Source of the DNA: Parcubacteria group bacterium
Lineage (GTDB): Bacteria > Patescibacteriota > Microgenomatia > UBA1400 > PJMF01
Length of the DNA stretch: 64,000 nucleotides
NCBI GenBank assembly: GCA_943350175.1
Contig: CALQZX010000001.1
Span: 97,702 to 161,701, forward strand
Direction of reading: 5' to 3'
Positions 1,407 to 61,619 of this stretch are shown here, one piece after another (the first letter of the stretch is position 1; every line of letters begins with the position of its first letter). The translations under genes and the position numbers were made by a program. The notes under the pieces were generated by a model that worked only from the letters and a program-made list of their open reading frames with translations, was not told where the DNA came from and did no database searches.

Positions 1407-1919
1407 TTAAATTGGCTTTTCAGCAATGCTCTTCTCTTTCTTTCTTGCTTTTGCTCTTCTGATGAGTAGCGCTGCACTGAGAGTGCCGCCGATGGCTCCG
1501 GCAAAACCTAAACTGACGTCTCCAGTGAATTGATTGTTTGGCGTGAATGATTCTATGGCAACATTAAGAACAGATATTAATGCAACTAATCTCATCAAGA
1601 ACTTAGGGCTAATTTCTTTTTTAAATTGAGTGATTAAATCGAAACTGTGTTTGGCAAAAACAGCGGCAGTAGCTAGACAAGAACTAAATCCGTAGTTGCC
1701 GATGTATTTGGCTAGATCACCAATTACTAATTCAAGTATTTTCCTTCTCTCTGGATCAGCCAGACCTTGGTGAGGATGGGAGTAAAGGTCTAGTAAAATG
1801 AGGCTTATATTCAAAAGAATCAGAGCTGCAACGGCTATATCGGCAGGAAGAGCTGTTCTTTTTTCTGGTGAATTAATTAGTTCTGACGCAACTGCGTTTT
1901 TTAAACGGATTTTTTCCAC
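1407..1919 (-). CDS. Hypothetical membrane protein
   Basis: 170 aa ORF with several hydrophobic segments. No recognisable motif. Confidence 0.45.
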   Translation of the reverse strand: MEKIRLKNAVASELINSPEKRTALPADIAVAALILLNISLILLDLYSHPHQGLADPERRKILELVIGDLAKYIGNYGFSSCLATAAVFAKHSFDLITQFKKEISPKFLMRLVALISVLNVAIESFTPNNQFTGDVSLGFAGAIGGTLSAALLIRRAKARKKEKSIAEKPI

Positions 1920-2016
1920 AACGTGATTATATATTAGTGATACTAATTAATGCATTATGATTATATGTGAGTCAGGTGGAGACGCTGAGCGTGCTACGCC
2001 GCCTCAGATTACTCCG

Positions 2017-2061
2017 CATAATGCGCCTCGCTATGCTCGTGTGCATTATTTAGCTCAATAA
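2017..2061. repeat. Conserved hairpin element (CATAATGC-N19-GCATTATT), copy A, 3' of tRNA-Lys(CTT)
   Basis: cataatgcgcctcgctatgctcgtgtgcattatttagctcaataa is ~85% identical to 24225..24267. It contains an 8-bp inverted repeat CATAATGC/GCATTAT(t). Confidence 0.6.
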
Positions 2062-2100
2062 CGCGAACCATGAGTTTTCATCCTTACCTGCTTCATTTAT

Positions 2101-2130
2101 AAAAAAAGACTCAAGAATGAGTCTATTTTT
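2101..2130. terminator. Bidirectional rho-independent terminator 3' of tRNA-Lys(CTT)
   Basis: aaaaaaAGACTCaagaatGAGTCTattttt: a 6-bp stem with an A-run upstream and a T-run downstream. Confidence 0.55.
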
Positions 2131-2136
2131 ATAAAG

Positions 2137-2210
2137 TGAGTCAGGTGGGACTCGAACCCACGACACCCTGCTTAAGAGGCAGGTGCTCTAACCGACTGAG
2201 CTACTGACCC
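2137..2210 (-). tRNA. tRNA-Lys (anticodon CTT)
   Basis: The reverse complement folds as a cloverleaf: acceptor GGGTCAG/CTGACTC, anticodon stem CCTGC/GCAGG, loop CTCTTAA, T-arm GTGGG-TTCGAGT-CCCAC. Confidence 0.85.
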
Positions 2211-8579: not shown

Positions 8580-8673
8580 CGACGGTGAGAGCGAAGCTCC
8601 CACCTAGTCCCCTTGGGGACCTGGTGGTAGTAATTTCAGAGAAATTAGTTAAAATATAAAAGCGTTAAAAAAC

Positions 8674-9226: not shown

Positions 9227-9679
9227 ATGAGGAAGTCTGCTGTCTTTATTCTAATTTTTACGGTAATTGTTTTATTTTACTTTTATTCATATAGCGGTAA
9301 CAAAGCGAGCCAAGGCAAAGCCTCTTCCAATTCTTACCCGACTCCATTTCAAAATAATAAGCCATCAAATGCCGTGGCAAAACCAACGGTGACCGGAACC
9401 TCTACGAGAGTCGTGTCGCCTATTGCTGTCACCGCGACTCCAGCTAGCGGCAATGGCAAAATGACTATGAGCGATGTTTCCAGCCATAATAAAAGAAATG
9501 ATTGTTATTTGGTTATCAAAAATAATGTCTATGACGTTTCTAGCTATATTTCTAATCATCCTGGCGGACAAGGAAAGATTATTAGCAACTGTGGCCAAGA
9601 AGTAACTGGTATTTTTGCTGATATTCACTCTAATTTTGCTTGGGATTTATTAAAAAATTATAAAATTGGCCAAATTTAA
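9227..9679 (+). CDS. Membrane-anchored cytochrome b5-like heme-binding domain protein
   Basis: 150 aa. N-terminal TM helix, Ser/Thr/Pro-rich linker, then cyt-b5 motif ...CYLVIKNNVYDVSSYISNHPGG.... Confidence 0.7.
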   Translation: MRKSAVFILIFTVIVLFYFYSYSGNKASQGKASSNSYPTPFQNNKPSNAVAKPTVTGTSTRVVSPIAVTATPASGNGKMTMSDVSSHNKRNDCYLVIKNNVYDVSSYISNHPGGQGKIISNCGQEVTGIFADIHSNFAWDLLKNYKIGQI

Positions 9680-10946
9680 TATGTATCTTTTTCTAGCCAT
9701 TTTTTTCTCGACATTGCCTTTTCTTTGGTTGTTTACGCAAGTTTCAATTATGGGTAGTTTTACGGCTGCTTTTGCCAATATTGCTGGTTTAGTTGGTGTC
9801 GTTCTAATGATGTGGCAAATAATTTTGGGCAATCGTTTTATTGTCAGAAATTTGACCAGAGATTATGTTTCCATGATCAAGTTGCATATCTTTTTAGGGA
9901 TTTATAGTCTGTTTTTGGTATTAGCTCACCCATTTTTAGAAATGATTTCCTATGGTAAAACTTTTACTTTCTTGCTGATTCCAGATCTTAGTTCTGAGCT
10001 AGGAAGTCATGTGGCCTTGGGTATCGTGGCAATTTATCTTTACTTATTTGTTTGGCTCAGTAGTGCTTTAACGAGAGACAAAATTTCTTACAGAATCTGG
10101 CGCTATTTGCATTATTTAGCCTACCCGATGCTGTTCTTTGCCTTTATTCACGCTGTAGAAATAGGAACTTTCCTAAGTAGTTTCATTTTGCTCAAAGCCT
10201 ATTTCATAATCTTGATGGTCGGTTTCGCGGCTGCTGTGCTCTACAGATTTAGCCAATTACTTGATGTTGGTAAATTTCCCTATGTTTTGTCTAGTAAAAA
10301 ACAAAGTAGCACTGGCGTAACAGCTTACACTTTTCGACCGATGGCTATTTCTTTAACTCCGAAAATCGGCCAATTCTTTTTTATTAAGCCAAGTGTTTTT
10401 GCTGAGAGTCATCCTTTTACGGTCATGAATTTTGTCGAGGAAAGTGGTGAATTAACTTTTGGGATTAAAGCTGTCGGTAAATTTACCAATCAACTAGAAG
10501 GCATCAGCGTTGGTCAAACTGTTTTTCTTGATGGACCATATGGGGTTTTTACCAGTGAAGCGCATAATAATAAGCCCAAGGTGATTATTGCTGGTGGCAT
10601 CGGCATCACGCCTTTTGTGGAGCTGGTTAGCCGCTTTGGTGACCAAAATACCAAGCTTTTCTACGCTAATAAATACCTCAAAGAAGCTGTTTCTCGTGAG
10701 CAATTTAAGGCGCAACTTGGAGCTAATTATTTTGATGTGATCTCTAGAGAAGAGATCAAAACAGAGACCGTAATTCAAGGAAGATTAAATGAACAGGTTT
10801 TTACGCAAAATCTAACTGCAGACTTTATCAAGCAGGCCAATTTTTTCATTTGTGGAAGCCCAGGTTTTATGGGTGGCGTATTAATGAGTTTGCATAAACT
10901 CGGCATCGATAAAAAAAGAATCTTTACTGAGGAGTTTTCTTTTTAG
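9666..10946 (+). CDS. Ferric-reductase-like transmembrane domain fused to FAD/NAD(P)-binding (FNR-like) oxidoreductase
   Basis: 426 aa. N-terminal ~200 aa polytopic with conserved His in helices (FRE/NOX-like). C-terminal HPFTV (FAD), GPYG and IAGGIGITPF (NAD) motifs. Confidence 0.7.
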   Translation: MAKFNMYLFLAIFFSTLPFLWLFTQVSIMGSFTAAFANIAGLVGVVLMMWQIILGNRFIVRNLTRDYVSMIKLHIFLGIYSLFLVLAHPFLEMISYGKTFTFLLIPDLSSELGSHVALGIVAIYLYLFVWLSSALTRDKISYRIWRYLHYLAYPMLFFAFIHAVEIGTFLSSFILLKAYFIILMVGFAAAVLYRFSQLLDVGKFPYVLSSKKQSSTGVTAYTFRPMAISLTPKIGQFFFIKPSVFAESHPFTVMNFVEESGELTFGIKAVGKFTNQLEGISVGQTVFLDGPYGVFTSEAHNNKPKVIIAGGIGITPFVELVSRFGDQNTKLFYANKYLKEAVSREQFKAQLGANYFDVISREEIKTETVIQGRLNEQVFTQNLTADFIKQANFFICGSPGFMGGVLMSLHKLGIDKKRIFTEEFSF

Positions 10947-24109: not shown

Positions 24110-24224
24110 AGGAATTTAAGGCTTATTCATGGGGAATATGAGCTTGCTCGCTTCACAAGAATAACTTTCACTAATCGTTACAGTTATTTTTCTTGTTCTC
24201 GCTGTGCTTCCTCATATAATTGAA

Positions 24225-24267
24225 CATAATGCTCCTCGCTTGCGCTCGCGTGCATTATTAGCTCAAT
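24225..24267. repeat. Conserved hairpin element (CATAATGC-N19-GCATTATT), copy B, 3' of tRNA-Glu
   Basis: cataatgctcctcgcttgcgctcgcgtgcattattagctcaatta aligns with 2017..2061. Confidence 0.6.
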
Positions 24268-24313
24268 TATCTGGACCTAAAATGATAGATTCTCTCATTG
24301 AGATCTTAAAACA

Positions 24314-24346
24314 TAAAAAAAGACGCTTGTTAGCGTCTCTTTTTAT
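24314..24346. terminator. Bidirectional rho-independent terminator 3' of tRNA-Glu
   Basis: aaaaaaAGACGCTtgttAGCGTCTcttttt. Confidence 0.55.
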
Positions 24347-24352
24347 GTTTTG

Positions 24353-24424
24353 TGACCCCATGGGGAATCGGACCCCAGTTATCTGGATGAAAACCAGATG
24401 TCCTAACCACTAGACGATGGGGCC
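24353..24424 (-). tRNA. tRNA-Glu (anticodon TTC)
   Basis: Revcomp GGCCCCATCGTCTAGTGGTTAGGAC, anticodon arm ATCTGG-TTTTCAT-CCAGAT, T-arm TGGGG-TCCGATT-CCCCA, acceptor TGGGGTC-A. The T-loop is unusual (UCCGAUU). Confidence 0.8.
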
Positions 24425-35394: not shown

Positions 35395-35605
35395 ACATCA
35401 TTATAAATATAAGGTCCGAAATTCGCTTTGCATCTTTCGTACCAGCTGCTTTTTGCTTCAGCATCATCTTTCTTGCGAAAGCTGTTGCTGGGGTCCGAAA
35501 TTCGCTTTGCATCTTTCGTACCGCTTGGTCCGAAATTCGCTTTGCATCTTTCGTACCAGCTGCTTTTTGCTTACTGCAAAAAGACAGGGTCCGAAATATA
35601 ATACC
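35395..35605. repeat. Tandem hairpin direct repeats upstream of tRNA-Leu(TAG)
   Basis: 31-nt unit GGTCCGAAATTCGCTTTGCATCTTTCGTACC at 35413..35443, 35492..35522 and 35527..35557. Partial copies at ~35325 and 35588..35605. Units 1 and 3 are followed by AGCTGCTTTTTGCTT. Each unit is an imperfect hairpin (GGTCCGAAA/TTTCGTACC). The ORF-track ORFs here are spurious. Confidence 0.65.
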
Positions 35606-43888: not shown

Positions 43889-43892
43889 CAAA

Positions 43893-43930
43893 TAAAAAAA
43901 GAGACCATAATTTGGTCTCTTTTTTTATTT
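43893..43930. terminator. Bidirectional rho-independent terminator 3' of tRNA-Gly(TCC)
   Basis: aaaaaaAGAGACCataatttGGTCTCTttttttatttg. Confidence 0.55.
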
Positions 43931-44108
43931 GAGACTGGTGGCTACAGATTAGAACTCTTGAGCGAAGTGAAAAAGTCCTGCCGCCAAGTGCGATTAGCAC
44001 CTGGGTAATACCCGTAGGGTGGATTCTGGTGATGAAAAAAGGCAAAGAAAAATCCTCTCTAAACGTAATAAAATGTACATAAAGCTGATCAGAAGTTATA
44101 ATTAAACC

Positions 44109-50942: not shown

Positions 50943-51074
50943 TTGGAGGCTATCAAAAGTTTATTTTTTGATATGCACAGCATCTTTCATACCAGCTCCT
51001 TTTTTGTTTTGCAAAAAAGTAGGGTCTGAAATATAATATCGCTGGTCTCGCGAGAGATTTTGTATTTTTAACAA

Positions 51075-51147
51075 GGGTCCGTAGCTCAGTCGGTAGAGCA
51101 GAAGCCTTTTAAGCTTTGTGTCGTGGGTTCGAGTCCCACCGGACTCA
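51075..51147 (+). tRNA. tRNA-Lys (anticodon TTT)
   Basis: GGGTCCGTAGCTCAGTCGGTAGAGCA, anticodon arm GAAGC-CTTTTAA-GCTTT, T-arm GTGGGTTCGAGTCCCAC, acceptor CGGACTC-A. Confidence 0.85.
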
Positions 51148-53037
51148 CAAGTTAGCAGCATTTGCCCCGAACTGTTTCAGTTCGTCTTCATGCAAAACCT
51201 TTTTTCTTGCCATGTTGATAAGGATTTGCTGCGGCAGTCGCAGATAAATATCAATTTCGTACGGAACCATTTGTTCTCGATCATTTAGTCCAATTGTCCC
51301 TGCTGTGTGGAGAGTCATTCCAGATATCTGCAGTTTATTCTCAGGCCTATTACTGTAATTGCCGGTTTTTCTTCTTCCTGGAATCTTGTCAGAAGGATCG
51401 GGTCTTCTAGAATGAACAACAATGCCATCGATAATCATGTGAAGAATCTCAAAGATTTTTTCTCTGTCCTCTTGGATATCATTGAGTTTGTCGACATATT
51501 TTTGAGAAAATAGCTCAAGTGAAATCTCATAGGCTTGAAGATTTGCTTTTTGACCAATTTGTAATTCCAACTTTTCTTGTTCCTCGGACAACCTTTTTTG
51601 TTCCAAGTCATAATCTTTCACTTTAGCAAGCATGGTGTCGGTATCAATAATTCCAAACTCATGCTGTTCTTTGACTCTACTAATCATGTTTGGAAGTGCA
51701 TTTAGCAACCTACGGAGTTCATCTCTTCTATCTCTGAGTCTGGTGAGCTCAATTTTATTGGACTCAAGTTCCCTTTGATAGTCAAATACTGACTTTGGAT
51801 CTAGCAAAAGATTTCGCACATACTCAACAACAAATTCCTCAATTTTATCTGCTGGCAAGGGCAAAACATTGCATGGATAGCTTGTCTTTCGAGCATTTCT
51901 GTTGCCACATTTGTAATAATGACTAAACCGACCAGTTGATTTGACTTTTTTTCGATCGCCGACCCATGTAGAAAGATCTCTCATTAGCATGGTTTTTCGA
52001 CAATGACTGCATCTAAGCAATCCGCCAAGTAAATAAACATTTTTACTGTTTTGAGGTAAAGCTATAACCTTGTTGTATTTTGGTTTCTCCTTGAGAGAAT
52101 TTGCTGCCATTTTGAACAAATAATCATCAATGATAGCCTGATGTCTATGTGGAGATAGTTTCCATTTACTTGGTTCAACTCTTTTGCCATTTTCATTTTT
52201 CCCATAGTAATATTTGCCAAGATAGACCTCATCTTGAAGAATCTTTGCGACTACATTCGCTCGCCAAAAATATGCGGTGTTTTTCTTTTGACTTGTTCCT
52301 CGTCTTTTTTTGTAAAAAACAGCGGAGGCCTCTGGTGAAAGAACTTTTTTGGACGCTAAGTGATCAGCGATTTGTTGCTCAGTGTAATTCTGGGTAACAA
52401 ACATGTCGAAGATATTGCGTATAACTAGAGCTTCTTCTTCTAAAATCTCTATTGTTCCATCCAACTTCTTTTTGTAACCAAAAGGAGGGGCACTTCCCAT
52501 CCACACACCTTGCTTTACCGCTTCTCTTCGCCCATCTTGTGTTCTTAGTTTTGTGGTTTCAATTTCAAGCTCAGCAATGACTCCAATAATTCCAAGCATG
52601 GCTTTACCAAAAGGAGTTGATGTATCAATACTCTCATTTGCCGATAAAAACTCAACCTTATTTTTCTCAAGATAGCCAATAATATTGAGCAGTTCCTGCA
52701 ACCTTCTGGCAAAACGATCAATTTTGTACACAACTACTAGATCAAAAGGCTTTTTGTCGCTGTTGGCTAGTTCTTCAGTGAGACGGCGAAATGCTGGACG
52801 CTCAAGCATTGGGGTAGTTCCACTAATGTCGTCCTTGAAGATAAACTTATCATCAACTATATATTTATCTCTGCCATCGGGAAATTTCTTTGATTGAACA
52901 AGACTCCTTATGGCTTGCTCTTGTAAGTCCAGACCATACTTTTCCTTCTGATCCTCAGTAGATACCCTCAAGTAAAGGGCTACTCGCTTCTGCTCATTAT
53001 CTTCATTATTCATTTTTTGCATTCTTCTAATAAACAA
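51145..53037 (-). CDS. Large serine recombinase (site-specific integrase/resolvase family)
   Basis: 630 aa. N-terminal resolvase catalytic domain VALYLRVSTEDQ (Ser nucleophile), recombinase domain, Cys-rich zinc ribbon (CSHCRK...CGNRNARKTSYPC), coiled-coil. The stop codon overlaps the last 3 nt of tRNA-Lys(TTT). Confidence 0.85.
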   Translation of the reverse strand: MFIRRMQKMNNEDNEQKRVALYLRVSTEDQKEKYGLDLQEQAIRSLVQSKKFPDGRDKYIVDDKFIFKDDISGTTPMLERPAFRRLTEELANSDKKPFDLVVVYKIDRFARRLQELLNIIGYLEKNKVEFLSANESIDTSTPFGKAMLGIIGVIAELEIETTKLRTQDGRREAVKQGVWMGSAPPFGYKKKLDGTIEILEEEALVIRNIFDMFVTQNYTEQQIADHLASKKVLSPEASAVFYKKRRGTSQKKNTAYFWRANVVAKILQDEVYLGKYYYGKNENGKRVEPSKWKLSPHRHQAIIDDYLFKMAANSLKEKPKYNKVIALPQNSKNVYLLGGLLRCSHCRKTMLMRDLSTWVGDRKKVKSTGRFSHYYKCGNRNARKTSYPCNVLPLPADKIEEFVVEYVRNLLLDPKSVFDYQRELESNKIELTRLRDRRDELRRLLNALPNMISRVKEQHEFGIIDTDTMLAKVKDYDLEQKRLSEEQEKLELQIGQKANLQAYEISLELFSQKYVDKLNDIQEDREKIFEILHMIIDGIVVHSRRPDPSDKIPGRRKTGNYSNRPENKLQISGMTLHTAGTIGLNDREQMVPYEIDIYLRLPQQILINMARKKVLHEDELKQFGANAANL

Positions 53038-53063
53038 GGATGCAGTACCTAGAACTATATGAA

Positions 53064-53453
53064 CTAGTGCTGGTCGACTTGTTTATAGAGGTGATAAAGG
53101 AGCCTGTCGTTCTCAGTCTTCGCCGATTTGACGAAAACTCCAATTTGCTGATCCTTACCCCTGTAATCTCTATATCTCAAAGGCTTTTCTGTATCAATTT
53201 GCATAGAGACAACCTCAAACTTATCAAAATCAAAGATCTGTTCTTTGCTCTCAAGTTTGGATTGAAGCTCAATTATTTCTTCCGTCTCAAAGTCAGTTTG
53301 ATCTTTCTTAGCAATTACCAGTGAATCAAAGTTTTCGTATGCTGATTGATGAAAGTAAGGATAAATCTCAATCCTCTGTTTGAGAGGATTAGCCATGATC
53401 TTCAGTAGCTTTGGTTTTACCACAATCTTCGGCAGCTTAGTTTTTGCCTTCAT
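53064..53453 (-). CDS. Hypothetical protein
   Basis: 129 aa, Lys-rich N-terminus. No motif. Confidence 0.4.
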   Translation of the reverse strand: MKAKTKLPKIVVKPKLLKIMANPLKQRIEIYPYFHQSAYENFDSLVIAKKDQTDFETEEIIELQSKLESKEQIFDFDKFEVVSMQIDTEKPLRYRDYRGKDQQIGVFVKSAKTENDRLLYHLYKQVDQH

Positions 53454-53599
53454 TGTGCCAATTATAACTTTTCAATCAAACTTCTTCTTGGGCAAACTAG
53501 CACGATAGTGCGAAATTGCATTTGGGTAGTGAAACCTACGGAAGTATAATGGTAAGAATCGCATAAAAAGCGGGAATACAAGAATGTAAGAATAACGCC

Positions 53600-55969
53600 A
53601 TGGACAAGTCAATCTTTTCAGAACGAGATATTTGCACAAAATATATAGCCCCCGCTTTGGTTCGTTCTGGATGGAATGTTGAAACTCAAATTCGTGAAGA
53701 AGTTTTTTTCACTAAAGGAAGAATTATTGTCCAAGATAAAGTGGTAAAGCGAGGTCAGCCTAAGAGAGCCGACTATATTCTCTACCATAAACCAAACCTA
53801 CCACTTGCCATAATTGAGGCTAAAGACAACAATCATTCGGTTGGTGCAGGCATGCAACAAGGCCTTGAATACGCTGAAACTCTCGATATTCCATTTGTTT
53901 TCAGTTCTAACGGAGACGGCTTCATTTTTCATGACAGGACCGGCTTATCAAGTGAGATTGAAAAACAACTGAGTCTTGATGAATTTCCAACTCCTCAAGA
54001 ACTCTATCAGAAATTTCTTCGTTGGAAACACATTACCCCTGAAGAGGAAGCTATCGTCACTACAGACTATCATGTGGATATTCGTGGTAAGGGACCTCGT
54101 TATTACCAGCAAATAGCCATCAACCGCACGATTGAGGCTGTTGCCAACGACCAAGACAGGATTTTATTAGTCATGGCTACCGGCACAGGTAAAACTTACA
54201 CCGCCTTTCAAATCATGTGGCGACTTTGGAAGTCACGATCAAAGAAACGCATTCTTTTCTTAGCTGATCGTAACATTCTCATTGATCAAGCAAAAAACAA
54301 CGACCTCATTCCTTTTGGTGACAAATTGACTAAGATTACCAATCGTCATGTTGATAAATCTTATGAAGTTTACATGTCACTCTATCAAGCTGTCACTGGC
54401 ACTGAGGAGGAAAGCAATATCTACAAACAATTTAGTCCTGACTTCTTTGACCTCATTATTATTGATGAGTGTCACCGAGGTAGTGCCAGAGCTGACTCGG
54501 CTTGGCGAGAAATTCTTGAATACTTTGGCAATGCAACTCAGATCGGCCTGACTGCTACACCAAAGGAAACCAAAGATGTCTCAAATATCGATTATTTTGG
54601 TGAGCCAATCTACACCTACTCACTCAAGCAAGGTATTGATGATGGCTTTTTGGCCCCTTACAAAGTCGTCCGAATTACCATTGACCGAGATGTTGAGGGT
54701 TACAGACCTGAAAATCATAAAGTTGATGTCTACGGGCGTGAAATTCCTGACGAAGTCTACTACGGTCCTGACTTTGATCGAACGCTCATTATTGATGATC
54801 GCACTAAATTAGTGGCCAAAAAAGTAGTTGAATATCTGCGAGAAACAGATCCCTTCTCCAAGACAATCATTTTTTGTATTGATGTGGAACATGCGGAACG
54901 CATGCGGCAGGCTCTTGTCAATGAAGCTCAAGATTTGTATCAGCAGAATCCTCATTATGTGATGAGAATTACTGGTGATGATGAGGCCGGTAAGGCTGAA
55001 TTAGACAACTTTATTGATCCAGAAAGTAAATATCCCGTTATTGTTACCACTTCCAAACTTTTGACTACTGGCGTGGATGTTCAGACCTGTAAAGTAGTCG
55101 TGCTCGATGCCAATATCAACTCAATGACTGAGTTCAAGCAGATTGTTGGTCGAGGCACTCGCCTGAGAGAAGACTTTGGTAAATATTTTTTCACCATTAT
55201 GGATTTCCGCAACGCTACTGATAATTTTGCTGATCCGAACTTTGACGGTATGCCTGAATCAATTTACGAGCCAGTGATGCCCGCTGAAATCGAGGGAAAA
55301 TTGAAAGAGGAAGCATCTATCTCTACCGCAAGTGAAATCCTATATGATCCAACTGAACCAGCAGATCCACTGGTACTCAGGGAGAATGGCCAGCCATATA
55401 CAACCAGTCGTAAATATCAAGTTCGTGATGTTTTAGTCAAAGTTACAGGTGAACAAGTTCAATTTCTTGATGAGCAAGGTAAGTTGATTGCTCAGAATTT
55501 GGAAGAGTTTTGCCAGAGTAATCTCAAGAATGTCTATCCTGAGCCAGAAGATTTTGTTCATGCTTGGAACCAATCAGATAACAAGAAGTTCTTACTATCA
55601 GAACTTGAGGTTCAAGGTATATTTGTTGAAGAACTGCTTGATAGCATAGATAAAAAACTTGATGAGTATGATTTGATTCTCAAGGTGGGATATGGGAAAG
55701 AAGCCAAAACTCGACAACAAAGAAGAACTAAAATCAATCTTTCTCAGATTCTGCCAAACCTTTCACCTTTGCAATCAAATCTAATCGAAGTTCTACTTGG
55801 AATCTACGAGGCTGAAGGTGTTTCTCATATTGAGGATGTAGCGGTTCTAGAAGTCGGAGCTTTTGCCCAATTTGGTCGTCCTTACGAGATTCTCACTCAA
55901 GTGTTTACCAATCGTGAAGAGTATGCTGAGGCGGTTCAAACAATTATCAAAGCACTCTATCAGGAATAA
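53600..55969 (+). CDS. hsdR: Type I restriction enzyme R subunit
   Basis: 789 aa. N-terminal PD-(D/E)xK nuclease (ADYILYH...IIEAKD), SF2 helicase motifs (ATGTGKT, DECHRG, LTATP, QIVGRGTR). Confidence 0.9.
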   Translation: MDKSIFSERDICTKYIAPALVRSGWNVETQIREEVFFTKGRIIVQDKVVKRGQPKRADYILYHKPNLPLAIIEAKDNNHSVGAGMQQGLEYAETLDIPFVFSSNGDGFIFHDRTGLSSEIEKQLSLDEFPTPQELYQKFLRWKHITPEEEAIVTTDYHVDIRGKGPRYYQQIAINRTIEAVANDQDRILLVMATGTGKTYTAFQIMWRLWKSRSKKRILFLADRNILIDQAKNNDLIPFGDKLTKITNRHVDKSYEVYMSLYQAVTGTEEESNIYKQFSPDFFDLIIIDECHRGSARADSAWREILEYFGNATQIGLTATPKETKDVSNIDYFGEPIYTYSLKQGIDDGFLAPYKVVRITIDRDVEGYRPENHKVDVYGREIPDEVYYGPDFDRTLIIDDRTKLVAKKVVEYLRETDPFSKTIIFCIDVEHAERMRQALVNEAQDLYQQNPHYVMRITGDDEAGKAELDNFIDPESKYPVIVTTSKLLTTGVDVQTCKVVVLDANINSMTEFKQIVGRGTRLREDFGKYFFTIMDFRNATDNFADPNFDGMPESIYEPVMPAEIEGKLKEEASISTASEILYDPTEPADPLVLRENGQPYTTSRKYQVRDVLVKVTGEQVQFLDEQGKLIAQNLEEFCQSNLKNVYPEPEDFVHAWNQSDNKKFLLSELEVQGIFVEELLDSIDKKLDEYDLILKVGYGKEAKTRQQRRTKINLSQILPNLSPLQSNLIEVLLGIYEAEGVSHIEDVAVLEVGAFAQFGRPYEILTQVFTNREEYAEAVQTIIKALYQE

Positions 55970-55971
55970 TT

Positions 55972-57396
55972 ATGTCACTCGGAAGCAAAGTCAAAACAAT
56001 TCAAAACATTATGCGTCAGGATACTGGTGTTGATGGTGACGCTCAGCGTATTTCCCAACTTGGTTGGCTAATATTTCTCAAAATCTTTGATGACCGAGAA
56101 AAAGAGCTGAGTACCATGAACCTCGGCTATGTTTCTGCCGTGCCTGAGGGCTTGAAGTGGCGAGATTGGGCGGCAAATCCAGAAGGCATGACTGGTGATG
56201 AGCTACTCAATTTCATCAACAATCAGCTATTCCCAAAACTCAAGAACCTAGAGGTCAGAGAAAATGACAAAAGGACCCTGATTTTACAAGCAGTGTTCTC
56301 TGATTCTTTCAATTACATGAAATCAGGCACTCTGCTGAGACAGATCATCAATGAACTCAATGATATTGATTTCAAGTCATCCAAAGATCGTCACATGTTC
56401 AATGATGTTTATGAACAAATTCTAAAAGACTTGCAAAGTGCTGGCAATGCCGGTGAGTTTTATACACCCAGACCAGTAACTCAATTTATTGTGGAGATGA
56501 TAAATCCACAGCTTGGTGAAAAAGTTTTTGATCCAGCTTGTGGTACTGGTGGATTCTTGACCTCAGTAATTGACCACCTGAGAAAAGATCAGATCAAAAC
56601 TGCTGAAGATGAAAAGATCTTAGCTGAGAGTCTGTATGGCATTGAGAAAAAGCCCCTCCCTCACTTGCTTTGCACAACTAACTTGATTTTACATGGGATT
56701 GATGACACTTCTAACATTATCAGGGGTAATTCACTAACTAGACCACTTAGAGATTACACAGAGTTAGATCGCATGAATGTAGTAGTAACCAACCCACCAT
56801 TTGGTGGTGTTGAGGAAGATGGTATTGAACTCAACTTCCCTAAGAAATTCCAGACTAAAGAAACGGCTGATCTTTTCTTGGTCCTAATTATTCATTTGCT
56901 AAAGAATGGTGGTCGAGCTGGCCTAGTTCTTCCTGACGGAACACTCTTTGGTGAGGGCGTAAAAACCGCCATCAAGGAGAAACTGCTTGAAGAATGTAAT
57001 CTGCACACTATTATCCGTCTGCCTGAAGGCGTTTTCTCACCTTACACAGGTATCAGAACAAATCTCTTGTTTTTTACCAAAGGTGAGCCAACTAGTGAAG
57101 TGTGGTTTTATGAACATAAGTATCCAGAAGGATATAAATCCTATTCAAAAACCAAACCAATGTCACTCAAGGAGTTTGATGCTGAAAGAGAATGGTGGAA
57201 TGATCGCTTGGAGGGTGAAAATAGCTGGAAAGTCAGTATTGATGAGCTGCGGGCAAGAGATTTCAATTTAGATATCAAGAATCCAAGTAAATCAATGCGG
57301 CATAGCTCAAAGAATCTAGAGGACATATTGTCTCAATTTGAGGAGAATCTTGACGAGATTCACAGTATTTTTGACTCATTAGTAAAGGAACTATAG
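55972..57396 (+). CDS. hsdM: Type I restriction-modification system DNA methyltransferase subunit
   Basis: 474 aa. N6-adenine MTase motifs DPACGTGGFL (motif I) and NPPFG (motif IV). Confidence 0.9.
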   Translation: MSLGSKVKTIQNIMRQDTGVDGDAQRISQLGWLIFLKIFDDREKELSTMNLGYVSAVPEGLKWRDWAANPEGMTGDELLNFINNQLFPKLKNLEVRENDKRTLILQAVFSDSFNYMKSGTLLRQIINELNDIDFKSSKDRHMFNDVYEQILKDLQSAGNAGEFYTPRPVTQFIVEMINPQLGEKVFDPACGTGGFLTSVIDHLRKDQIKTAEDEKILAESLYGIEKKPLPHLLCTTNLILHGIDDTSNIIRGNSLTRPLRDYTELDRMNVVVTNPPFGGVEEDGIELNFPKKFQTKETADLFLVLIIHLLKNGGRAGLVLPDGTLFGEGVKTAIKEKLLEECNLHTIIRLPEGVFSPYTGIRTNLLFFTKGEPTSEVWFYEHKYPEGYKSYSKTKPMSLKEFDAEREWWNDRLEGENSWKVSIDELRARDFNLDIKNPSKSMRHSSKNLEDILSQFEENLDEIHSIFDSLVKEL

Positions 57397-57398
57397 CT

Positions 57399-57947
57399 AT
57401 GAAATACAAATTAGGCGACTTCTTCAAACAGAGAAAAGGGTTCATTCAAATTGAAGATACTAAGGAGTATAAACGCTGCCGTTTGCAGGTTAGAGCTCGA
57501 GGTATTGTCTTGAGAGATATTGTCCCCGGATCAAAAATAAAAACAAAAAAGCAGCAGGTTTGTCTAGCTGGTGATTTTGTTGTGGCTGAGATCGATGCAA
57601 AAGTTGGAGGTTTTGGTTTTATCCCAAATGAACTTGATGGTTCTATTGTTAGCAGCCATTACTTTATTTTTGAAATAGATGAAAGCACCGTCTTAGCAGA
57701 ATATTTTGCTCTAATAATAAAATTAGAAGCTTTTCAAAGCAAATTTCGTGCAAGAGGTTCAACAAATTATGCAGCAATCAGGCCACATGACTTTTTGAAC
57801 ATTGATGTGGAAATTCCCAATCCAACAAAACAAACTGAAATAGTAAACAAGTACAAAAAAGCATCCAAACTAGAAGAAAAAATAAAAAACCAACTTGAGC
57901 TTCTTGATGAATTGAAAGAGAAAATTATCATCTATGAACAGGAATAG
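57399..57947 (+). CDS. hsdS: Type I R-M specificity subunit, half-size (single target-recognition domain)
   Basis: 182 aa, about half the usual HsdS length. One TRD followed by a conserved coiled-coil region (EIPNPTKQTEIVNKYKKASKLEEKIKNQLELLDELKEKII). Confidence 0.7.
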   Translation: MKYKLGDFFKQRKGFIQIEDTKEYKRCRLQVRARGIVLRDIVPGSKIKTKKQQVCLAGDFVVAEIDAKVGGFGFIPNELDGSIVSSHYFIFEIDESTVLAEYFALIIKLEAFQSKFRARGSTNYAAIRPHDFLNIDVEIPNPTKQTEIVNKYKKASKLEEKIKNQLELLDELKEKIIIYEQE

Positions 57948-59685
57948 GGTAAAAAAAATATTTATCAGAAATTTCAGAAGTATTGGTCCAGAAGGTATAT
58001 GGATTGATTTGAATCATATTGTTGTTCTGGTTGGTCAAAATAACAGCGGAAAAAGCTCAATTCTTCGTGCCTTGAAGGTTATTACAGAAGGTGAAGGATC
58101 ATCTAAACTCACAATTGAAGACTTCCACCAAAACAAATTGGATAATTGCCCTGAGGTAATTTTGGAAACTTATGTTTTTGATCCAGCACTTCCAGGTACA
58201 GAGTGGATTATCACCGAACCAACAGGTGAACAATTTGTTAGAGAACGATGGCTTTGGGCTCTTCCAGATGTCTCACCAGTGAGAGTTGGTTGGAATCAGT
58301 CAAAAAATGGTTGGGCTTCTGCAGATACTAAGGAAGAAAAGTACCCATGGGGACCAGACAATATCGCTATGGCTCGAAGACCAGAGCCTCACGAAGTAAA
58401 CCCATTTGATGATCCAGAAAAGCAAGCTAATGAGATTGTAAAAATTCTCAATGCCCTGGTAAAAAGCAAGATATCTGCTCTTATATCTGACGACCAACTA
58501 AAACAGGAAAGAAAATACCAACAAATTGTTGATGAATTGAAGGTTCTAAGAAAAAGCGTGGTTGATGATGCCAAAGTTGAAATCGAAGAAATTGAGACGA
58601 AGCTCAATGATCTTGTTTCATCAGTTTTTGCTGGAAATAAAATTGAATTTGATCCACAACCTGAAGAAAAAGTTGAGGATGCTGTTCAAGCTGCACTAAT
58701 CAACATGAATGCTCAGCTCAAAATGGGGCCAGAAGGTGGTTATAAAGGAACGATTGAAAAACAAGGAAGTGGAGCTCGAAGAACATTGCTGTGGATTGCA
58801 TTGAAATTGACAGTCGAATTAGGTGGCGGAAAGAAAAAATCGAGAGGCAAAAAAGCTGAAACGAGTGTTGTTGAAGATCGTCCTCATGTTCTTTTGTTGA
58901 ACGAGCCAGAGATTTGTTTGCATCCAAGTGCGGTTAGAGACGCAAGAGATACTTTATACAAACTACCAGAGACCGGTAATTGGCAAGTTATGGTCACATC
59001 TCATTCGCCAATATTTATTGATATATCAAAAGATAATACAACCATCGTTAGAGTAGAAAAAGATATTACTGGAAAAGTATCAAGTGAAACAGTATTTCGT
59101 CCTGACTCAGCTCAGCTGACAGACGAAGAAAAGCTTCAATTGAAGTTGCTAAATATTTTTGATCCATATTTTGCAGAATTCTTCTTCGCGAAGCACATTA
59201 TTGTTGTAGAGGGTGATACTGAATACTCAGCATTTCGCTACCTACTTCAAGAAAAAGGTAATAGCTCAGTTCATATTCTGAGAGCGAGAGGTAAGGCCCC
59301 AATTGCTACGATTATAAAAATTCTCAATCATTTCAAATCAAGTTATGCTGTTTTGCATGATAGTGACACTCCAAAGTTAGATTCAGGAAAGAAAAACCCA
59401 GCTTGGACCGTAAATCAGTCTATTTTAGATGTGTTCTCTTCAAGAGAGTCTGGAACAAAAGCTCGGCTAGTAGCTAGCGTTCCTGATTTTGAACGAGCAT
59501 GTTTTGGTAGACAAGTGGAAAACGACAAGCCATATGAAACCATTACTGAACTATCTAATAGTCCAACTATGAAAGCTAGAACTGAACAGCTGCTAGACGC
59601 ATTGATTCAATTTGATAAGCCTTTGCCTGTTGGATTTATTGAATGGGGAAATCTTTCTGATCTTGAAAAGCAAGCTACAAAATAA
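57934..59685 (+). CDS. OLD-family nuclease (N-terminal ABC ATPase + C-terminal TOPRIM)
   Basis: 583 aa. Walker A VLVGQNNSGKSS, signature-like QGSGARRTL, Walker B/D-loop HVLLLNEPE, H-loop MVTSHSP. C-terminal TOPRIM with IIVVEGDTEYSAF (Glu) and VLHDSDTPK (DxD). Confidence 0.75.
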   Translation: MNRNRVKKIFIRNFRSIGPEGIWIDLNHIVVLVGQNNSGKSSILRALKVITEGEGSSKLTIEDFHQNKLDNCPEVILETYVFDPALPGTEWIITEPTGEQFVRERWLWALPDVSPVRVGWNQSKNGWASADTKEEKYPWGPDNIAMARRPEPHEVNPFDDPEKQANEIVKILNALVKSKISALISDDQLKQERKYQQIVDELKVLRKSVVDDAKVEIEEIETKLNDLVSSVFAGNKIEFDPQPEEKVEDAVQAALINMNAQLKMGPEGGYKGTIEKQGSGARRTLLWIALKLTVELGGGKKKSRGKKAETSVVEDRPHVLLLNEPEICLHPSAVRDARDTLYKLPETGNWQVMVTSHSPIFIDISKDNTTIVRVEKDITGKVSSETVFRPDSAQLTDEEKLQLKLLNIFDPYFAEFFFAKHIIVVEGDTEYSAFRYLLQEKGNSSVHILRARGKAPIATIIKILNHFKSSYAVLHDSDTPKLDSGKKNPAWTVNQSILDVFSSRESGTKARLVASVPDFERACFGRQVENDKPYETITELSNSPTMKARTEQLLDALIQFDKPLPVGFIEWGNLSDLEKQATK

Positions 59686-59698
59686 TGAAAGGATTCAA

Positions 59699-59911
59699 AT
59701 GCAAAGAATACCAGTAAATTCATCAAATATCGCTGCGATAGGTTACGATCCAGACTCAAGTATTTTAGAGATTGAATTCAATGATGGAAGTATTTACCAA
59801 TATTTTGGGGTTCCTGAGTTGGTCCATCAAGAATTGATGGATGCTGGATCACATGGAAAGTATTTTGCCCAGAATATCAAAAATGATTATGAATATAAAA
59901 AGGTAAACTAA
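59699..59911 (+). CDS. KTSC domain-containing protein
   Basis: From MQRIPVNSSNIAAIGYDPDSSILEIEFNDGSIYQYFGVPELVHQELMDAGSHGKYFAQNIKNDYEY, matching the KTSC consensus. Good RBS (AAAGGA) 8 nt upstream. Confidence 0.6.
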   Translation: MQRIPVNSSNIAAIGYDPDSSILEIEFNDGSIYQYFGVPELVHQELMDAGSHGKYFAQNIKNDYEYKKVN

Positions 59912-59915
59912 TCTT

Positions 59916-61213: not shown

Positions 61214-61310
61214 ACTACTTTGTTGAGTAGTCTATTTAGTTTGAAACACGAGCAATATTATATCAAAACTCTACGAGTTGTGCGTTTACGATTTGTCACA
61301 AATCTTCAGA

Positions 61311-61562: not shown

Positions 61563-61588
61563 TTTTTTGATAACAATTATCTTTGATT

Positions 61589-61612
61589 GCCGGTATTCAT
61601 ACCGGTTTTTTG
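61589..61612 (+). terminator. Rho-independent terminator after the XRE gene
   Basis: gCCGGTAttcaTACCGGtttttt. Confidence 0.55.
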
Positions 61613-61619
61613 TTTTATT

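What the first reader, a model, noticed from the sequence alone, without database searches (positions are those of the whole stretch)
1964..2136. Conserved hairpin element plus 13-nt duplicate of the tRNA-Lys(CTT) 3' end, ~160 bp downstream of the tRNA
GTGAGTCAGGTGG, which covers the last 12 nt of the tRNA plus one flanking nt at 2136..2148, recurs at 1967..1979. Between the copies lie a bidirectional terminator and a 45-nt element, CATAATGCgcctcgctatgctcgtgtGCATTATTtagctcaataa, which is ~85% identical to one at 24225..24267 next to tRNA-Glu. A duplicated tRNA 3' end flanking a small structured insert resembles the footprint of a miniature tRNA-targeting element, or the scar left after excision or deletion of a larger integrated element. 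The hairpin could instead be a conserved processing or terminator-associated motif.
Basis: seen in the sequence. Interest (0 to 1): 0.6.

Follow-up and report, generated by a model that had tools for sequence, protein, structure and literature searches.

The report
Structured insertion module behind tRNA genes
The 169 bases behind this lysine tRNA gene are one copy of an apparently undescribed family of small, tightly folded elements found only directly behind certain tRNA genes in candidate-phyla-radiation bacteria; each ends in a copy of the last 12-17 bases of its own tRNA, and it looks like a tiny insertion element whose fold is kept by selection.

Summary
The 13-mer occurs at 1967-1979 and 2136-2148. 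The 45-nt hairpin recurs at 24225-24269 with 84.8% identity.

The two features belong to one 169-nt unit (1967-2135, minus strand).

A close relative (L002) has the same tRNA joined directly to the same downstream promoter, with the unit absent.

Pattern and covariance-model searches found about 20 further copies in Microgenomates/Pacebacteria-type MAGs and metagenomes. Every copy lies about 40 nt behind a tRNA or tRNA remnant, in the tRNA's orientation. Each intact copy ends in a copy of its own tRNA's 3' end. Seven isoacceptors are involved: Lys-CTT, Lys-TTT, Val-GAC, Ser-CGA, Pro-TGG, Pro-GGG and Glu-TTC.

P3 evolves more slowly than flanking coding DNA. P4 shows three compensatory double changes between orthologues. 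G.U pairs favour the tRNA-sense strand.

Rfam, phage and plasmid searches found nothing.

Best reading: a non-autonomous, tRNA-end-specific insertion module whose RNA fold is under selection. How it moves is unknown.

The parts
2137..2210 (-). tRNA-Lys(CTT) gene. No CCA is encoded; C74 lies at 2136.
   Evidence: ARAGORN; Rfam tRNA model, 72.9 bits.
2136..2148 (-). T1: the last 12 nt of the tRNA plus C74 (CCACCTGACTCAC on the minus strand). This is the proximal copy of the direct repeat.
1967..2135 (-). The whole inserted unit, 169 nt: terminator + T' + core + T2. This is exactly the segment missing from the orthologous site of relative L002.
   Evidence: In L002 the tRNA end ...cccacctgactcac is followed directly by the promoter region of the 170-aa ORF. 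Homology between loci stops at the T2 end and, where the tRNA is degenerate, starts at the terminator. Covariance model R1 scores 113 bits over 1967-2098.
2096..2135 (-). Intrinsic terminator: A-run, stem 2107-2124, T-run. It is embedded in a palindrome that continues outward into T1 and T'.
   Evidence: Terminator scan on both strands. Folds. The AGAC[GT]C...G[AC]GTCTTTT type occurs in the window only at the two module loci.
2086..2095 (-). T' (TGAAGCAGGT): an imperfect reverse complement of the tRNA 3' end. It can pair with T2 (helix P1) or with T1 (extended terminator hairpin).
   Evidence: MFE folds. Its own tail is the best duplex partner among 13 tails. The cognate tRNA is the best match for its reverse complement.
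2079..2083 (-). P1b 5' strand (GGATG). It pairs with CGTCT at 1980-1984.
   Evidence: Pair 21:134 occurs as G-C (2), A-U (5) and G-U (7) across 14 members; pair 20:135 occurs as U-G or C-G.
2064..2078 (-). P2 and the T-arm-like box: AAAAC-TCAT-GGTTCG. The box is GGTTCG behind tRNAs whose T arm is GGTTCGAGTCC, and GGTCCAGAT in the tRNA-Glu variant, whose tRNA has GGTCCGATT.
   Evidence: Alignments. This is a reading of the sequences; pairing in P2 is weak (3-4 bp, no covariation).
2009..2061 (-). Layout: outer stem TTATTGAGC/GCTCAATAA (partly broken in this copy), inner stem TAATGC/GCATTA, then a distal part with C-G pairs, a tandem G.A/A.G and an AAA loop.
   Evidence: RNAalifold and pair counts. 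Pair 65:72 occurs as GC (8), AU (4) and GU (2). P3 is 96% identical between orthologues against 65-80% for its neighbours.
1985..2007 (-). P4: a variable hairpin, CTGAGGCGGCGTAGCACGCTCAG (type I). Three other sequence types occupy the same position in other members.
   Evidence: In the Glu-type P4, 6 of the 8 differences between orthologues are three compensatory double changes.
1980..1984 (-). P1b 3' strand, CGTCT. The motif YGTCT is conserved, and GTC matches tRNA positions 59-61.
1967..1979 (-). T2: the distal direct copy of the tRNA 3' end (CCACCTGACTCAC). It adjoins the native flank.
   Evidence: The flank after T2 aligns with the flank after the tRNA in L002.
24125..24352 (-). Second copy of the family (Glu subtype), behind tRNA-Glu(TTC) at 24353-24424. 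Parts: terminator 24308-24352, 5' segment 24270-24307, P3 24217-24269, long P4 24137-24216, truncated T2 ATTCCCCATG 24128-24137.
   Evidence: R1 hit of 57 bits. Syntenic with L023, which has the full 17-nt T2. Selection on P3 and P4.

Best explanation
What it is. The 13-mer and the hairpin are two parts of one discrete 169-nt unit on the minus strand (1967-2135). It belongs to a family of 130-200-nt modules that sit directly behind particular tRNA genes in Microgenomates/Pacebacteria-type (Patescibacteria) bacteria.

Anatomy, in tRNA orientation:
- tRNA end (T1);
- intrinsic terminator;
- T', an imperfect inverted copy of the tRNA end;
- core;
- T2, a direct copy of the last 12-17 nt of the same tRNA, up to C74;
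- native flank.

Proposed mechanism. The unit is an insertion, most likely a non-autonomous mobile element or its domesticated descendant. It lands exactly at the end of a tRNA gene and duplicates the stretch from the T-loop/T-stem boundary to C74. That makes T2 a target or att duplication. The unit brings its own terminator for the tRNA. Its tRNA-sense strand, most simply an RNA made by read-through or from the A/T-rich terminator flank, folds into a four-way junction closed by T':T2.

Shown:
- The boundaries of the unit.
- Its absence from an orthologous site.
- Strict linkage to tRNAs, with tRNA-specific end copies at seven isoacceptors.
- A strand-specific, covarying fold.
- Slower evolution of P3 and P4 than of neighbouring DNA.

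Inferred:
- Mobility itself.
- Target choice through the shared T arm. All standard-type targets carry GGTTCGAGTCC; the Glu subtype goes with GGTCCGATT.
- The enzyme, which acts in trans and is unknown. Candidates are an integrase that crosses over at the T loop or a casposase-like staggered cut.
- Upkeep of T' against the tRNA end by quasi-palindrome template switching.
- Any benefit to the host.
For: 1. Empty site. L002's 170-aa ORF is 78% identical and its flanks 84-88% identical at the DNA level. There the tRNA end is joined directly to the ORF promoter, and exactly 1967-2135 is missing.
2. Family and context. 12 true members came from one-genome-per-species contigs and 7 from JGI metagenomes. 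Each lies about 40 nt behind a tRNA or tRNA remnant, in the same orientation. Covariance model R1 found nothing elsewhere in 194 kb; sense hits scored 57-146 bits (one deletion derivative 29) and antisense hits about 15.
3. End copies. T2 equals the 3' end of the cognate tRNA for Lys-CTT, Lys-TTT, Val-GAC, Ser-CGA, Pro-GGG and Glu-TTC, and a rearranged copy for Pro-TGG. The remnant in L003/L004 carries that lineage's own acceptor-stem variant.
4. Unit boundaries. Similarity between loci ends within 3 nt of the T2 end.
5. Inverted copy. T' pairs best with its own tail for the Lys, Val and Glu members. In 11 of 13 loci, 11-15 of the last 16 tRNA nt pair with the post-terminator segment. In a separate 91-nt fold, most module-less tRNAs paired 0-10 of the 16 nt (two reached 11 and 14), and nearly all folded much more weakly.
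6. Fold. 97.9% of cells are paired, and the covariation score exceeds all 500 shuffles. There are 25 G.U cells on the tRNA-sense strand, against at most about 3 cells that would be G.U on the other strand.
7. Selection. P3 is 96% identical between orthologues, against 65-73% for the terminator and 75-80% for flanking DNA. Three compensatory double substitutions account for 6 of the 8 differences in P4.
8. No match to Rfam 15, phages, plasmids or viral contigs.
Against: - No transposase, integrase, reverse transcriptase or Cas1 is linked to any copy, and no autonomous relative was found.
- Copies within one genome are old paralogues, not near-identical. P3 is 78-93% identical between paralogues and the P4 types differ, so there is no sign of recent transposition.
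- Subtypes mostly follow the tRNA species, which fits long vertical descent.
- The more distant L003/L004 keep a remnant. The L002 'empty site' may therefore be a precise deletion between the 13-mers rather than the state before insertion.
- No known insertion mechanism produces a direct, an inverted and a second direct copy of the target.
- There are no conserved terminal inverted repeats.
- T':T2 pairing is not clearly cognate for the Ser and Pro members.
- Transcription has not been shown.
- This window's copy has two mismatches in the outer P3 stem and may be decaying.
Confidence: 0.55

Rival explanations
1. A host non-coding RNA or cis-acting 3' trailer module that is not mobile. It is inherited vertically with its tRNA gene. 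Selection keeps T2 identical to the tRNA end and T' complementary to it, for example as a switch between T':T1 and T':T2 pairing or as an acceptor/T-arm mimic. It is occasionally lost by recombination between T1 and T2.
For: - P3 and P4 are under purifying selection in place, shown by compensatory changes between syntenic orthologues.
- Subtypes follow the tRNA species.
- Paralogues within one genome are old.
- L003/L004 keep a remnant, so L002 can be a loss.
- G.U asymmetry points to an RNA on the tRNA-sense strand.
- T' can pair with either T1 or T2.
Against: - Homologous cores behind seven unrelated tRNA species each end in that tRNA's own 3' end. At least at its origin, each locus needed an event that placed the core there and copied the local tRNA end.
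- tRNA-Val carries two different P4 types in different genomes (L021 versus L030).
- Decayed copies exist: L025, L031, the truncated T2 at 24128-24137, and L003.
- Only 2 of the 12 tRNAs in the window carry a copy of this family.
- The window's tRNA-Lys(TTT) lacks the module that the upstream-syntenic L029 locus has.
Confidence: 0.2
2. The scar of a larger integrated element, such as a prophage or island that entered the tRNA 3' end by site-specific recombination. The two 13-mers would be attL and attR cores, and the 156 nt between them the fused arms left after an internal deletion. That would make it a miniature cis-mobilizable element (CIME).
For: - Direct repeats of a tRNA 3' end that start near the T loop are the classic signature of integrase-mediated integration (established knowledge).
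- CIMEs are defined as elements that have lost their integration and transfer genes but kept attL and attR (PMC5704250).
- tRNA 3' ends are used by mobile elements in this very genome. A large serine recombinase gene abuts tRNA-Lys(TTT), followed by a defence island.
- L018 has a serine recombinase upstream of a degenerate tRNA plus module.
Against: - All of the roughly 20 copies have the same gene-less internal organisation. A deletion would have had to happen once and the mini-element then spread, which is the best explanation rather than this one.
- The same arms occur with seven different core sequences, which is unlike integrase att sites.
- An inverted copy of the core and a covarying, strand-specific fold are not expected of double-stranded att arms.
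- No gene-carrying relative appeared in genome, metagenome, viral, phage or plasmid searches.
Confidence: 0.12
3. A local replication accident at each tRNA. Fold-back or template-switch synthesis at the terminator palindrome (a tandem inversion duplication) made the direct, inverted and direct copies of the tRNA end. P3/P4 is a separate small element that later inserted into the spare T loop.
For: - The arrangement is a zig-zag whose first turn is the terminator loop.
- The 4-6-nt trailers differ between loci but are mirrored after the T-run.
- The third copy looks like a T arm split between GGTTCG and GTC.
- L023 and L003 have a terminator after T2, as a triplication would predict.
Against: - It needs two rare events to coincide at every one of seven tRNA species.
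- P3/P4 was never seen outside this context.
- The two terminators in L023 differ in sequence.
- It does not explain the selection on the fold.
Confidence: 0.05
4. A generic intergenic repeat (REP/MITE-like) or plain terminator-associated hairpin, with the 13-mer match arising by chance.
For: The element is small, GC-richer than its surroundings, hairpin-forming, intergenic, and next to a terminator.
Against: - The window holds only two copies, both behind tRNAs.
- All public copies are behind tRNAs.
- Only 1 of 20,000 shuffles reached a 13-nt copy of the tRNA end.
- The duplication recurs with the appropriate sequence at every other tRNA species.
Confidence: 0.03

Closest known systems
tRNA-gene-integrating islands and prophages, and their gene-less derivatives (cis-mobilizable elements, CIMEs; PMC5704250)
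   Same: - The insert lies exactly at the 3' end of a tRNA gene and is flanked by direct repeats of the tRNA 3' end that begin near the T loop.
- The tRNA stays intact.
- Related genomes differ in presence or absence.
- There is no recombinase inside the element.
   Different: - It is only 130-200 nt long and never carries genes.
- The same core is found at seven tRNA species, with the repeat changing to match each.
- It has an additional inverted copy of the tRNA end.
- Its fold is strand-specific, covarying and under selection.
- No autonomous partner is known.
Casposon integration by Cas1 casposase at the tRNA-Pro 3' end (Aciduliprofundum boonei; PMC5137440)
   Same: - A long target duplication (15 bp there, 12-17 nt here) is anchored at a tRNA 3' end.
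- There, the TpsiC-loop region is the required recognition segment upstream of the duplicated stretch. Here, all standard targets share the T arm GGTTCGAGTCC immediately upstream of T2.
   Different: - There the duplication overlaps the tRNA by only 5 bp; here it lies wholly inside the tRNA.
- Casposons have terminal inverted repeats, Cas1 and PolB; none is seen here.
- Casposons have no structured RNA core.
- That example is archaeal; these copies come from bacterial MAGs.
Bacterial MITEs and REP/REPIN-type repeats, such as Correia, RUP, BOX and REP (own knowledge)
   Same: - They are small, non-coding and hairpin-forming.
- They are intergenic and can supply terminators.
- They are presumed to be mobilised in trans.
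   Different: - This element is not dispersed; it is found only behind tRNA genes, with a few copies per genome.
- It has no conserved terminal inverted repeats and no short fixed duplication.
- Its ends are copies of the target, in both orientations.
Folded single-strand attachment sites: the CTX-phage attP(+) forked hairpin and integron attC (own knowledge; not tested here)
   Same: - An imperfect hairpin is built from an inverted and a direct copy of a target-like sequence, with bulges and a branched distal part.
- The structure matters more than the sequence, and only one strand is functional.
   Different: - Those sites mimic dif or pair with attI and are acted on by XerCD or IntI.
- Here the mimicked sequence is a tRNA gene end and the enzyme is unknown.
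- attC R-box consensus sequences are absent by inspection.
Quasi-palindrome template switching and tandem inversion duplications (own knowledge)
   Same: - The arrangement of direct, inverted and direct copies turns at a hairpin, here the terminator.
- The trailers are mirrored.
- The copies evolve in concert with the tRNA end.
   Different: - Such events are sporadic and local.
- They do not explain a homologous, selected P3/P4 core shared by seven tRNA loci and several genera.

Membership tests
Rfam families (any described RNA) | A match to a curated covariance model. | tested here: not met
   The gathering-threshold scan of the window found only 12 tRNAs. An E-value scan up to 10 over 1900-2250 found nothing credible within 1967-2098.
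Integrase-type att scar / CIME | Direct repeats of the tRNA 3' end bounding the insert. | tested here: met
   13 nt at 1967-1979 and 2136-2148. The repeat is 12-17 nt in the other members.
Integrase-type att scar / CIME | A related autonomous element, with an integrase, that shares the att-flanking arms. | tested here: not met
   None was found among the core hits in genome, metagenome and viral contigs, or in phage and plasmid records. The searches needed exact words or at least about 65% identity, so distant relatives could have been missed.
Integrase-type att scar / CIME | Related elements use one target gene; the att core is constant for similar arms. | tested here: not met
   The same P3 core occurs with seven different tRNA-end repeats.
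MITE | Conserved terminal inverted repeats. | tested here: not met
   The only inverted terminal sequences are T' and T2, and these differ with each tRNA. The left end (trailer plus terminator) and the right end (P4-GTCT) share at most AGAC[GT]C, not at the termini.
MITE | Many dispersed intergenic copies. | tested here: not met
   There are 2 copies in 64 kb and none away from tRNAs in 194 kb.
MITE | A target-site duplication of fixed length. | tested here: inconclusive
   The repeat is 12-13 nt in the standard subtype and 16-17 nt in the Glu subtype. Whether it arises by staggered cleavage cannot be told from sequence.
REP/REPIN | A short palindromic unit, highly repeated, after many kinds of genes. 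| tested here: not met
   The element is found only next to tRNAs and in few copies.
Casposon-like (Cas1) integration | A 14-15-bp duplication next to a T-arm 'leader'. | tested here: inconclusive
   A duplication of similar length lies immediately 3' of a shared T arm, GGTTCGAGTCC. The register differs from the published case.
Casposon-like (Cas1) integration | Cas1 casposase and terminal inverted repeats. | not testable with these tools
   There is no protein inside the unit. Whole genomes of the hosts could not be scanned for Cas1-solo.
Retron non-coding RNA | A closing stem formed by the 5' and 3' ends, plus a reverse transcriptase gene directly downstream. | tested here: not met
   A closing stem is present. 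The downstream genes differ at every locus and none is a reverse transcriptase: a 170-aa ORF with no Pfam hit, a NUDIX protein, an epimerase and others.
Intrinsic (Rho-independent) terminator | A GC-containing hairpin followed by a T run. | tested here: met
   Stem 2107-2124 with T runs on both strands. This applies to the terminator part of the unit only.

The most novel reading that the evidence does not exclude
The module is a new kind of tRNA-matched device, not merely a small transposon. Two versions are open.

(a) It is a mobile element whose insertion copies the end of its target tRNA gene in both orientations. This would be self-templated 'zig-zag' insertion, possibly through a folded single strand that mimics the duplex end of the tRNA gene.

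(b) It is an RNA whose closing helix reproduces the acceptor/T-stem 3' strand of its cognate tRNA, and whose T' segment can alternatively capture the real tRNA 3' end. That would be a per-tRNA switch or decoy acting on tRNA maturation, or on enzymes that attack tRNA ends.

A second, sequence-unrelated module with the same architecture sits behind tRNA-Gly(TCC) at 43889-44033. This suggests a class of such elements rather than a single family.
Probability: 0.2. Interest if true: 0.85.

Novelty: new variant of a known kind. Interest (0 to 1): 0.64.

Why it matters
If it is a mobile element, it would be the first small non-coding element I know of that is specific for the 3' ends of many different bacterial tRNA genes and tailors its ends to each target. 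That would point to an unrecognised integration activity in candidate-phyla-radiation bacteria, possibly one that reads the T arm as casposases do.

If it is mainly a functional RNA, it would be a conserved four-way-junction RNA tied to individual tRNAs in organisms with minimal genomes, where every retained non-coding element is informative.

There are also practical consequences. The duplicated tRNA ends would be taken for island boundaries by att-repeat-based island finders. The unit also supplies the terminator of the tRNA gene.

Tried and rejected
- Rfam, at gathering threshold and at permissive E-values: nothing for the module.
- Core pattern scan of viral contigs: 0 hits. blastn against phage and plasmid records: no match.
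- Eleven of the 23 genome pattern hits were chance matches with unrelated loops and flanks (Nostoc, Haemophilus, Mannheimia, Shewanella and others) and were discarded.
- Coding potential. GAGG-N7-ATG CTC AAT AA... inside P3 would give a 7-22-aa peptide with no conserved sequence after four residues. I rejected it as a by-product of the stem sequence (inspection).
- Hammerhead, attC R-box and dif-like readings of GAUGAAAAC/GUC, AAC/GTT and GCGCATTATGCTCAAT. By inspection the required consensus or spacing is absent. None was tested further.
- The idea that T' in this copy is a copy of the tRNA's anticodon-stem strand (AAGCAGG). Other members do not show it.
- The 10-nt palindrome-like CATAATGCATTA at 1950-1961 resembles the P3 inner stem. 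It is present in the empty-site relative too (CACAATGCACTA), so it belongs to the native promoter region.
- A search for a clean empty site at tRNA-Lys(TTT), comparing the window with L029 and L032. The upstream side is syntenic but the downstream flanks do not align.
- Relatives of the NUDIX gene next to the tRNA-Glu copy. No locus was syntenic and none had a tRNA-Glu or a module.
- Pfam scans of genes next to copies for a common enzyme. None was shared. The serine recombinases found lie next to other tRNA ends or remnants and have no sequence link to the module.
Full report
**1. The observation**

tRNA-Lys(CTT) lies on the minus strand at 2137-2210 and encodes no CCA. The discriminator is followed by a C at 2136. 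GTGAGTCAGGTGG occurs exactly at 2136-2148 and at 1967-1979. Only 1 of 20,000 shuffles of the 400 nt behind the tRNA contained a 13-nt copy of the tRNA end. A terminator-like hairpin (2107-2124) with T runs on both strands lies between the copies. The 45-mer at 2017-2061 matches 24225-24269 at 39 of 46 aligned columns. That second copy is behind tRNA-Glu(TTC), in the same orientation relative to its tRNA.

**2. An insert-free relative**

The window is part of a 168-kb metagenome contig. The 170-aa ORF downstream (1407-1919, minus strand, no Pfam family) has only five relatives in 5.8 billion proteins.

- In the closest relative (L002; protein 78% identical, DNA 84-88%), the tRNA end ...cccacctgactcac is followed directly by aaaatatcacaatgcactaattaatatcactaatatataat. 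This is the counterpart of the sequence that follows the distal 13-mer in the window. The window therefore carries exactly 169 extra nucleotides (1967-2135), counting one copy of the repeat.
- The more distant L003/L004 have the tRNA, then 33 nt resembling the 3' half of P4 plus GTCT, then an 11-13-nt copy of their own tRNA end, then a terminator. Their tRNA end carries a lineage-specific acceptor-stem change (ACCCGACTCAC), and the copy carries it too. The distal copy thus tracks the local tRNA. A remnant is also present in an outgroup, so L002 may represent a precise loss.

**3. A family, always behind tRNAs**

A degenerate pattern for the hairpin and its flank found 23 loci in one-genome-per-species contigs. 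Twelve share the loop and flanks; the rest are chance matches. A stricter pattern found 7 more in JGI metagenomes and none in viral contigs.

Record titles name Candidatus Pacebacteria UBA1364, Candidatus Microgenomatus (Patescibacteria), Saccharibacteria, and 'uncultured Pseudomonadales'. One MAG with the last label (L023) is syntenic with the window over 11 kb at 72-84% identity, so that label is doubtful.

In every locus the hairpin lies about 80 nt behind a tRNA gene in the same orientation. The tRNAs are Lys-TTT, Val-GAC, Ser-CGA, Pro-TGG, Pro-GGG and Glu-TTC. In L016 and L018 it lies behind a degenerate tRNA 3' fragment. L012 and L024 are cut by contig ends.

A covariance model built from 14 members found only these copies in 194 kb of window plus loci. 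Intact standard-type copies scored 102-146 bits on the tRNA-sense strand, the two Glu-type copies 57 bits and the deletion derivative L025 29 bits. Antisense hits scored about 15 bits. Rfam 15 has no matching family. Phage and plasmid records have no similar DNA.

**4. Anatomy**

In tRNA orientation every member reads as follows.

- The tRNA, ending at C74 (T1).
- A 4-6-nt trailer, then A-run, GC hairpin and T-run, then the trailer mirrored.
- T', an imperfect reverse complement of the tRNA end.
- GAYR, then GAAAC-N4-GTTC and a GGTTCG box.
- P3, a 53-nt arm that is almost invariant.
- P4, a hairpin of one of four unrelated sequence types.
- YGTCT.
- T2, a direct copy of the last 12-13 nt of the same tRNA (16-17 nt in the Glu subtype), ending at C74.
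- Unrelated flank.

Window coordinates are listed under 'parts'. Similarity between loci stops within 3 nt of the T2 end. Where the tRNA is degenerate, it starts at the terminator. That is the same unit that is missing in L002.

The terminator type AGAC[GT]C..G[AC]GTCTTTT occurs in the 64-kb window only at the two module loci. In the other loci it occurs only next to modules.

All targets of the standard subtype share the T arm GGTTCGAGTCC directly upstream of the duplicated stretch. The Glu subtype goes with GGTCCGATT, and its internal box changes from GGTTCG to GGTCCAGAT.

**5. The inverted copy**

The 5' segment pairs best with its own tail, out of 13 tails, for the Lys-CTT, Lys-TTT, Val and Glu members. 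This does not hold for the Ser and Pro members. Its reverse complement aligns best to the cognate tRNA end in 9 of 13.

Folding the last 16 nt of the tRNA together with the terminator and the next 20 nt gives a hairpin of about 30 bp in which 11-15 of the 16 tRNA-end nucleotides are paired in 11 of 13 loci. The Pro loci are included. In a separate fold of the last 16 nt plus 75 nt downstream, tRNAs without a module mostly paired 0-10 of the 16 nt (two reached 11 and 14), and their energies were nearly all much weaker. The main exception is tRNA-Gly(TCC) in the window, which carries a different module of the same architecture.

The arrangement is therefore direct copy, terminator, inverted copy, then a second direct copy. 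The second direct copy looks like a T arm split between GGTTCG and GTC by P3 and P4. T' can pair with T1 or with T2, but not with both.

**6. Fold and selection**

Single-sequence folds recover a closing helix (T':T2 plus GAYR:YGTC), P3 and P4 in most members. This gives a four-way junction if the weak P2 is counted.

On the 14-member alignment, 97.9% of cells in P1b and P3 are standard pairs. With the partner column slid by 1 to 3 positions, the figure falls to 27-45%. The covariation score exceeds all 500 shuffles. Relatedness inflates that test, and most P3 pairs never vary. The informative pairs are these:

- 21:134 occurs as GC 2, AU 5, GU 7.
- 65:72 occurs as GC 8, AU 4, GU 2.
- 66:71 occurs as CG 12, UA 1, UG 1.
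- The Glu subtype changes U-A to A-U in the outer P3 stem.

Twenty-five cells are G.U on the tRNA-sense strand. At most about three would be G.U on the other strand. The structure therefore matters in the tRNA-sense strand, either as RNA or as that single DNA strand.

Between syntenic orthologues, P3 is 96% identical. The terminator is 65-73% identical, the T' region 72-81%, and flanking mostly coding DNA 75-80%. In the 80-nt P4 of the Glu subtype, the window and L023 differ at 8 positions. Six of these are three fully compensatory double changes and two lie in loops. This shows selection on the fold in place, even in a copy whose T2 is truncated.

**7. Interpretation**

Homologous cores behind seven unrelated tRNA species each end in that tRNA's own 3' end. 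This requires that, at least when each locus arose, the core was placed there by a process that copied the local tRNA end. The process behaves like an insertion with target or att duplication. The unit boundaries, the insert-free relative and the decayed copies (L025, L031, L003, and T2 at 24128-24137) fit that.

The long duplication next to a shared T arm recalls two known cases:

- integrases that cross over at the T loop (own knowledge);
- the casposase target, where the TpsiC-loop region is required next to a 15-bp duplicated segment (PMC5137440).

On the other hand, paralogues are old, subtypes mostly follow the tRNA, and the fold is conserved by selection in place. Most copies therefore look like long-resident, probably useful parts of the tRNA locus. 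Each brings a strong bidirectional terminator.

I therefore favour a non-autonomous insertion module that is, or has become, a selected structured RNA (confidence 0.55). Three alternatives are less likely:

- a never-mobile host RNA (0.2);
- a deletion scar or CIME (0.12; definition in PMC5704250);
- independent template-switch accidents (0.05).

A generic REP reading is excluded.

Two things remain unexplained. No enzyme is linked to the element, and no mechanism I know yields the direct, inverted and direct copies. Quasi-palindrome template switching could create T' and keep it matched to the tRNA end, but that is inference.

**8. Novelty**

I found no description of such an element in Rfam or in the literature searches made. 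The nearest known kinds are tRNA-integrating elements and CIMEs, casposon integration, MITEs/REPINs and folded single-strand att sites. It fails the defining tests of each (see the membership table). I file it as a new variant of a known kind, a small non-autonomous insertion element. There is a real chance that the tRNA-matched ends reflect something new.

Noticed in passing
window 51145-63999: A 630-aa large serine recombinase gene (Resolvase + Recombinase + Zn-ribbon domains, minus strand) ends inside the last 3 nt of tRNA-Lys(TTT) (51075-51147). It is followed by a type I restriction-modification system (HsdR 53600-55969, HsdM 55972-57396, HsdS 57399-57947), an OLD/AbiEii-like ATPase (57934-59685), a SocA/Panacea antitoxin-like gene (61734-62387) and a second recombinase fragment (62947-63999). 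This looks like a defence island integrated at the tRNA 3' end. The upstream-syntenic locus L029 has the small module at this tRNA instead.
   Followed up: partly
window 43889-44033 (+): Behind tRNA-Gly(TCC) there is a module of the same architecture but with an unrelated sequence. It has a terminator whose palindrome runs into the tRNA end, a T'-like GAGACTGGTGG, three GC-rich hairpins, and a partial copy of the tRNA T-loop/T-stem (GATTCTGGTGA versus GATTCTGGTCA). The fold z-score is -6.9. It may be a second family of the same class.
   Followed up: partly
window 35413-35572, 50963-51047, 1330-1404; also L010 2452-2533, L009 2447-2508, L002 5343-5443: An approximately 80-nt repeat (GGTCCGAAATTCGCTTTGCATCTTTCGTACCAGCTGCTTTTTGCTT) lies upstream of tRNA-Leu(TAG), where there are three tandem copies. 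It also lies upstream of tRNA-Lys(TTT) and prs, and in other genomes upstream of tRNA-Arg and rpsU. It is 81-95% identical across genomes and is probably a shared strong-promoter module.
   Followed up: partly
window 8580-8650 (+): The spacer between tRNA-Val(TAC) and tRNA-Phe holds GC-rich hairpins (GGTGAGAGCGAAGCTCCCACC and TAGTCCCCTTGGGGACCTGG) in an otherwise AT-rich genome. The loop motif GAGCGAAGC resembles the P3 loop motif.
   Followed up: no
window, all 12 tRNA genes: None of the tRNA genes encodes CCA, yet in all 12 the discriminator base is followed by C. The duplicated tRNA-end copies include this C. They therefore derive from the gene or the precursor, not from mature CCA-tailed tRNA.
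   Followed up: partly
L016 6120-6200; L018 3500-3575 and 1008-1832: In two genomes the module sits behind a degenerate tRNA 3' fragment instead of an intact tRNA. In L018 a 274-aa serine recombinase and several small ORFs lie just upstream, which suggests that another element integrated into that tRNA.
   Followed up: partly
L021 1360-1407 (minus strand): Directly after T2 at the tRNA-Val locus, the last 3 nt of T2 plus 14 nt of flank are duplicated in tandem (CACAAAGAATCGACTTT twice). This is another small duplication anchored on a tRNA-end copy.
   Followed up: no
L002 1-45 versus window 2136-2180: The orthologous tRNA in the closest relative has anticodon TTT where the window has CTT. The 3' half, the part held in the contig, is otherwise identical. 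This may be an anticodon switch or a strain variant at the start of the contig.
   Followed up: no
L025 1862-1938 versus L030 230-345: L025 is a deletion derivative. The sequence jumps from the 5' arm of P3 to the native flank that follows T2 in L030, removing the P3 loop, P4 and T2.
   Followed up: yes
window 9227-10946 (+): A cytochrome b5-like protein is followed by a ferric-reductase-type FAD/NAD oxidoreductase. This gene pair is unexpected in a presumed fermentative candidate-phyla-radiation genome.
   Followed up: no
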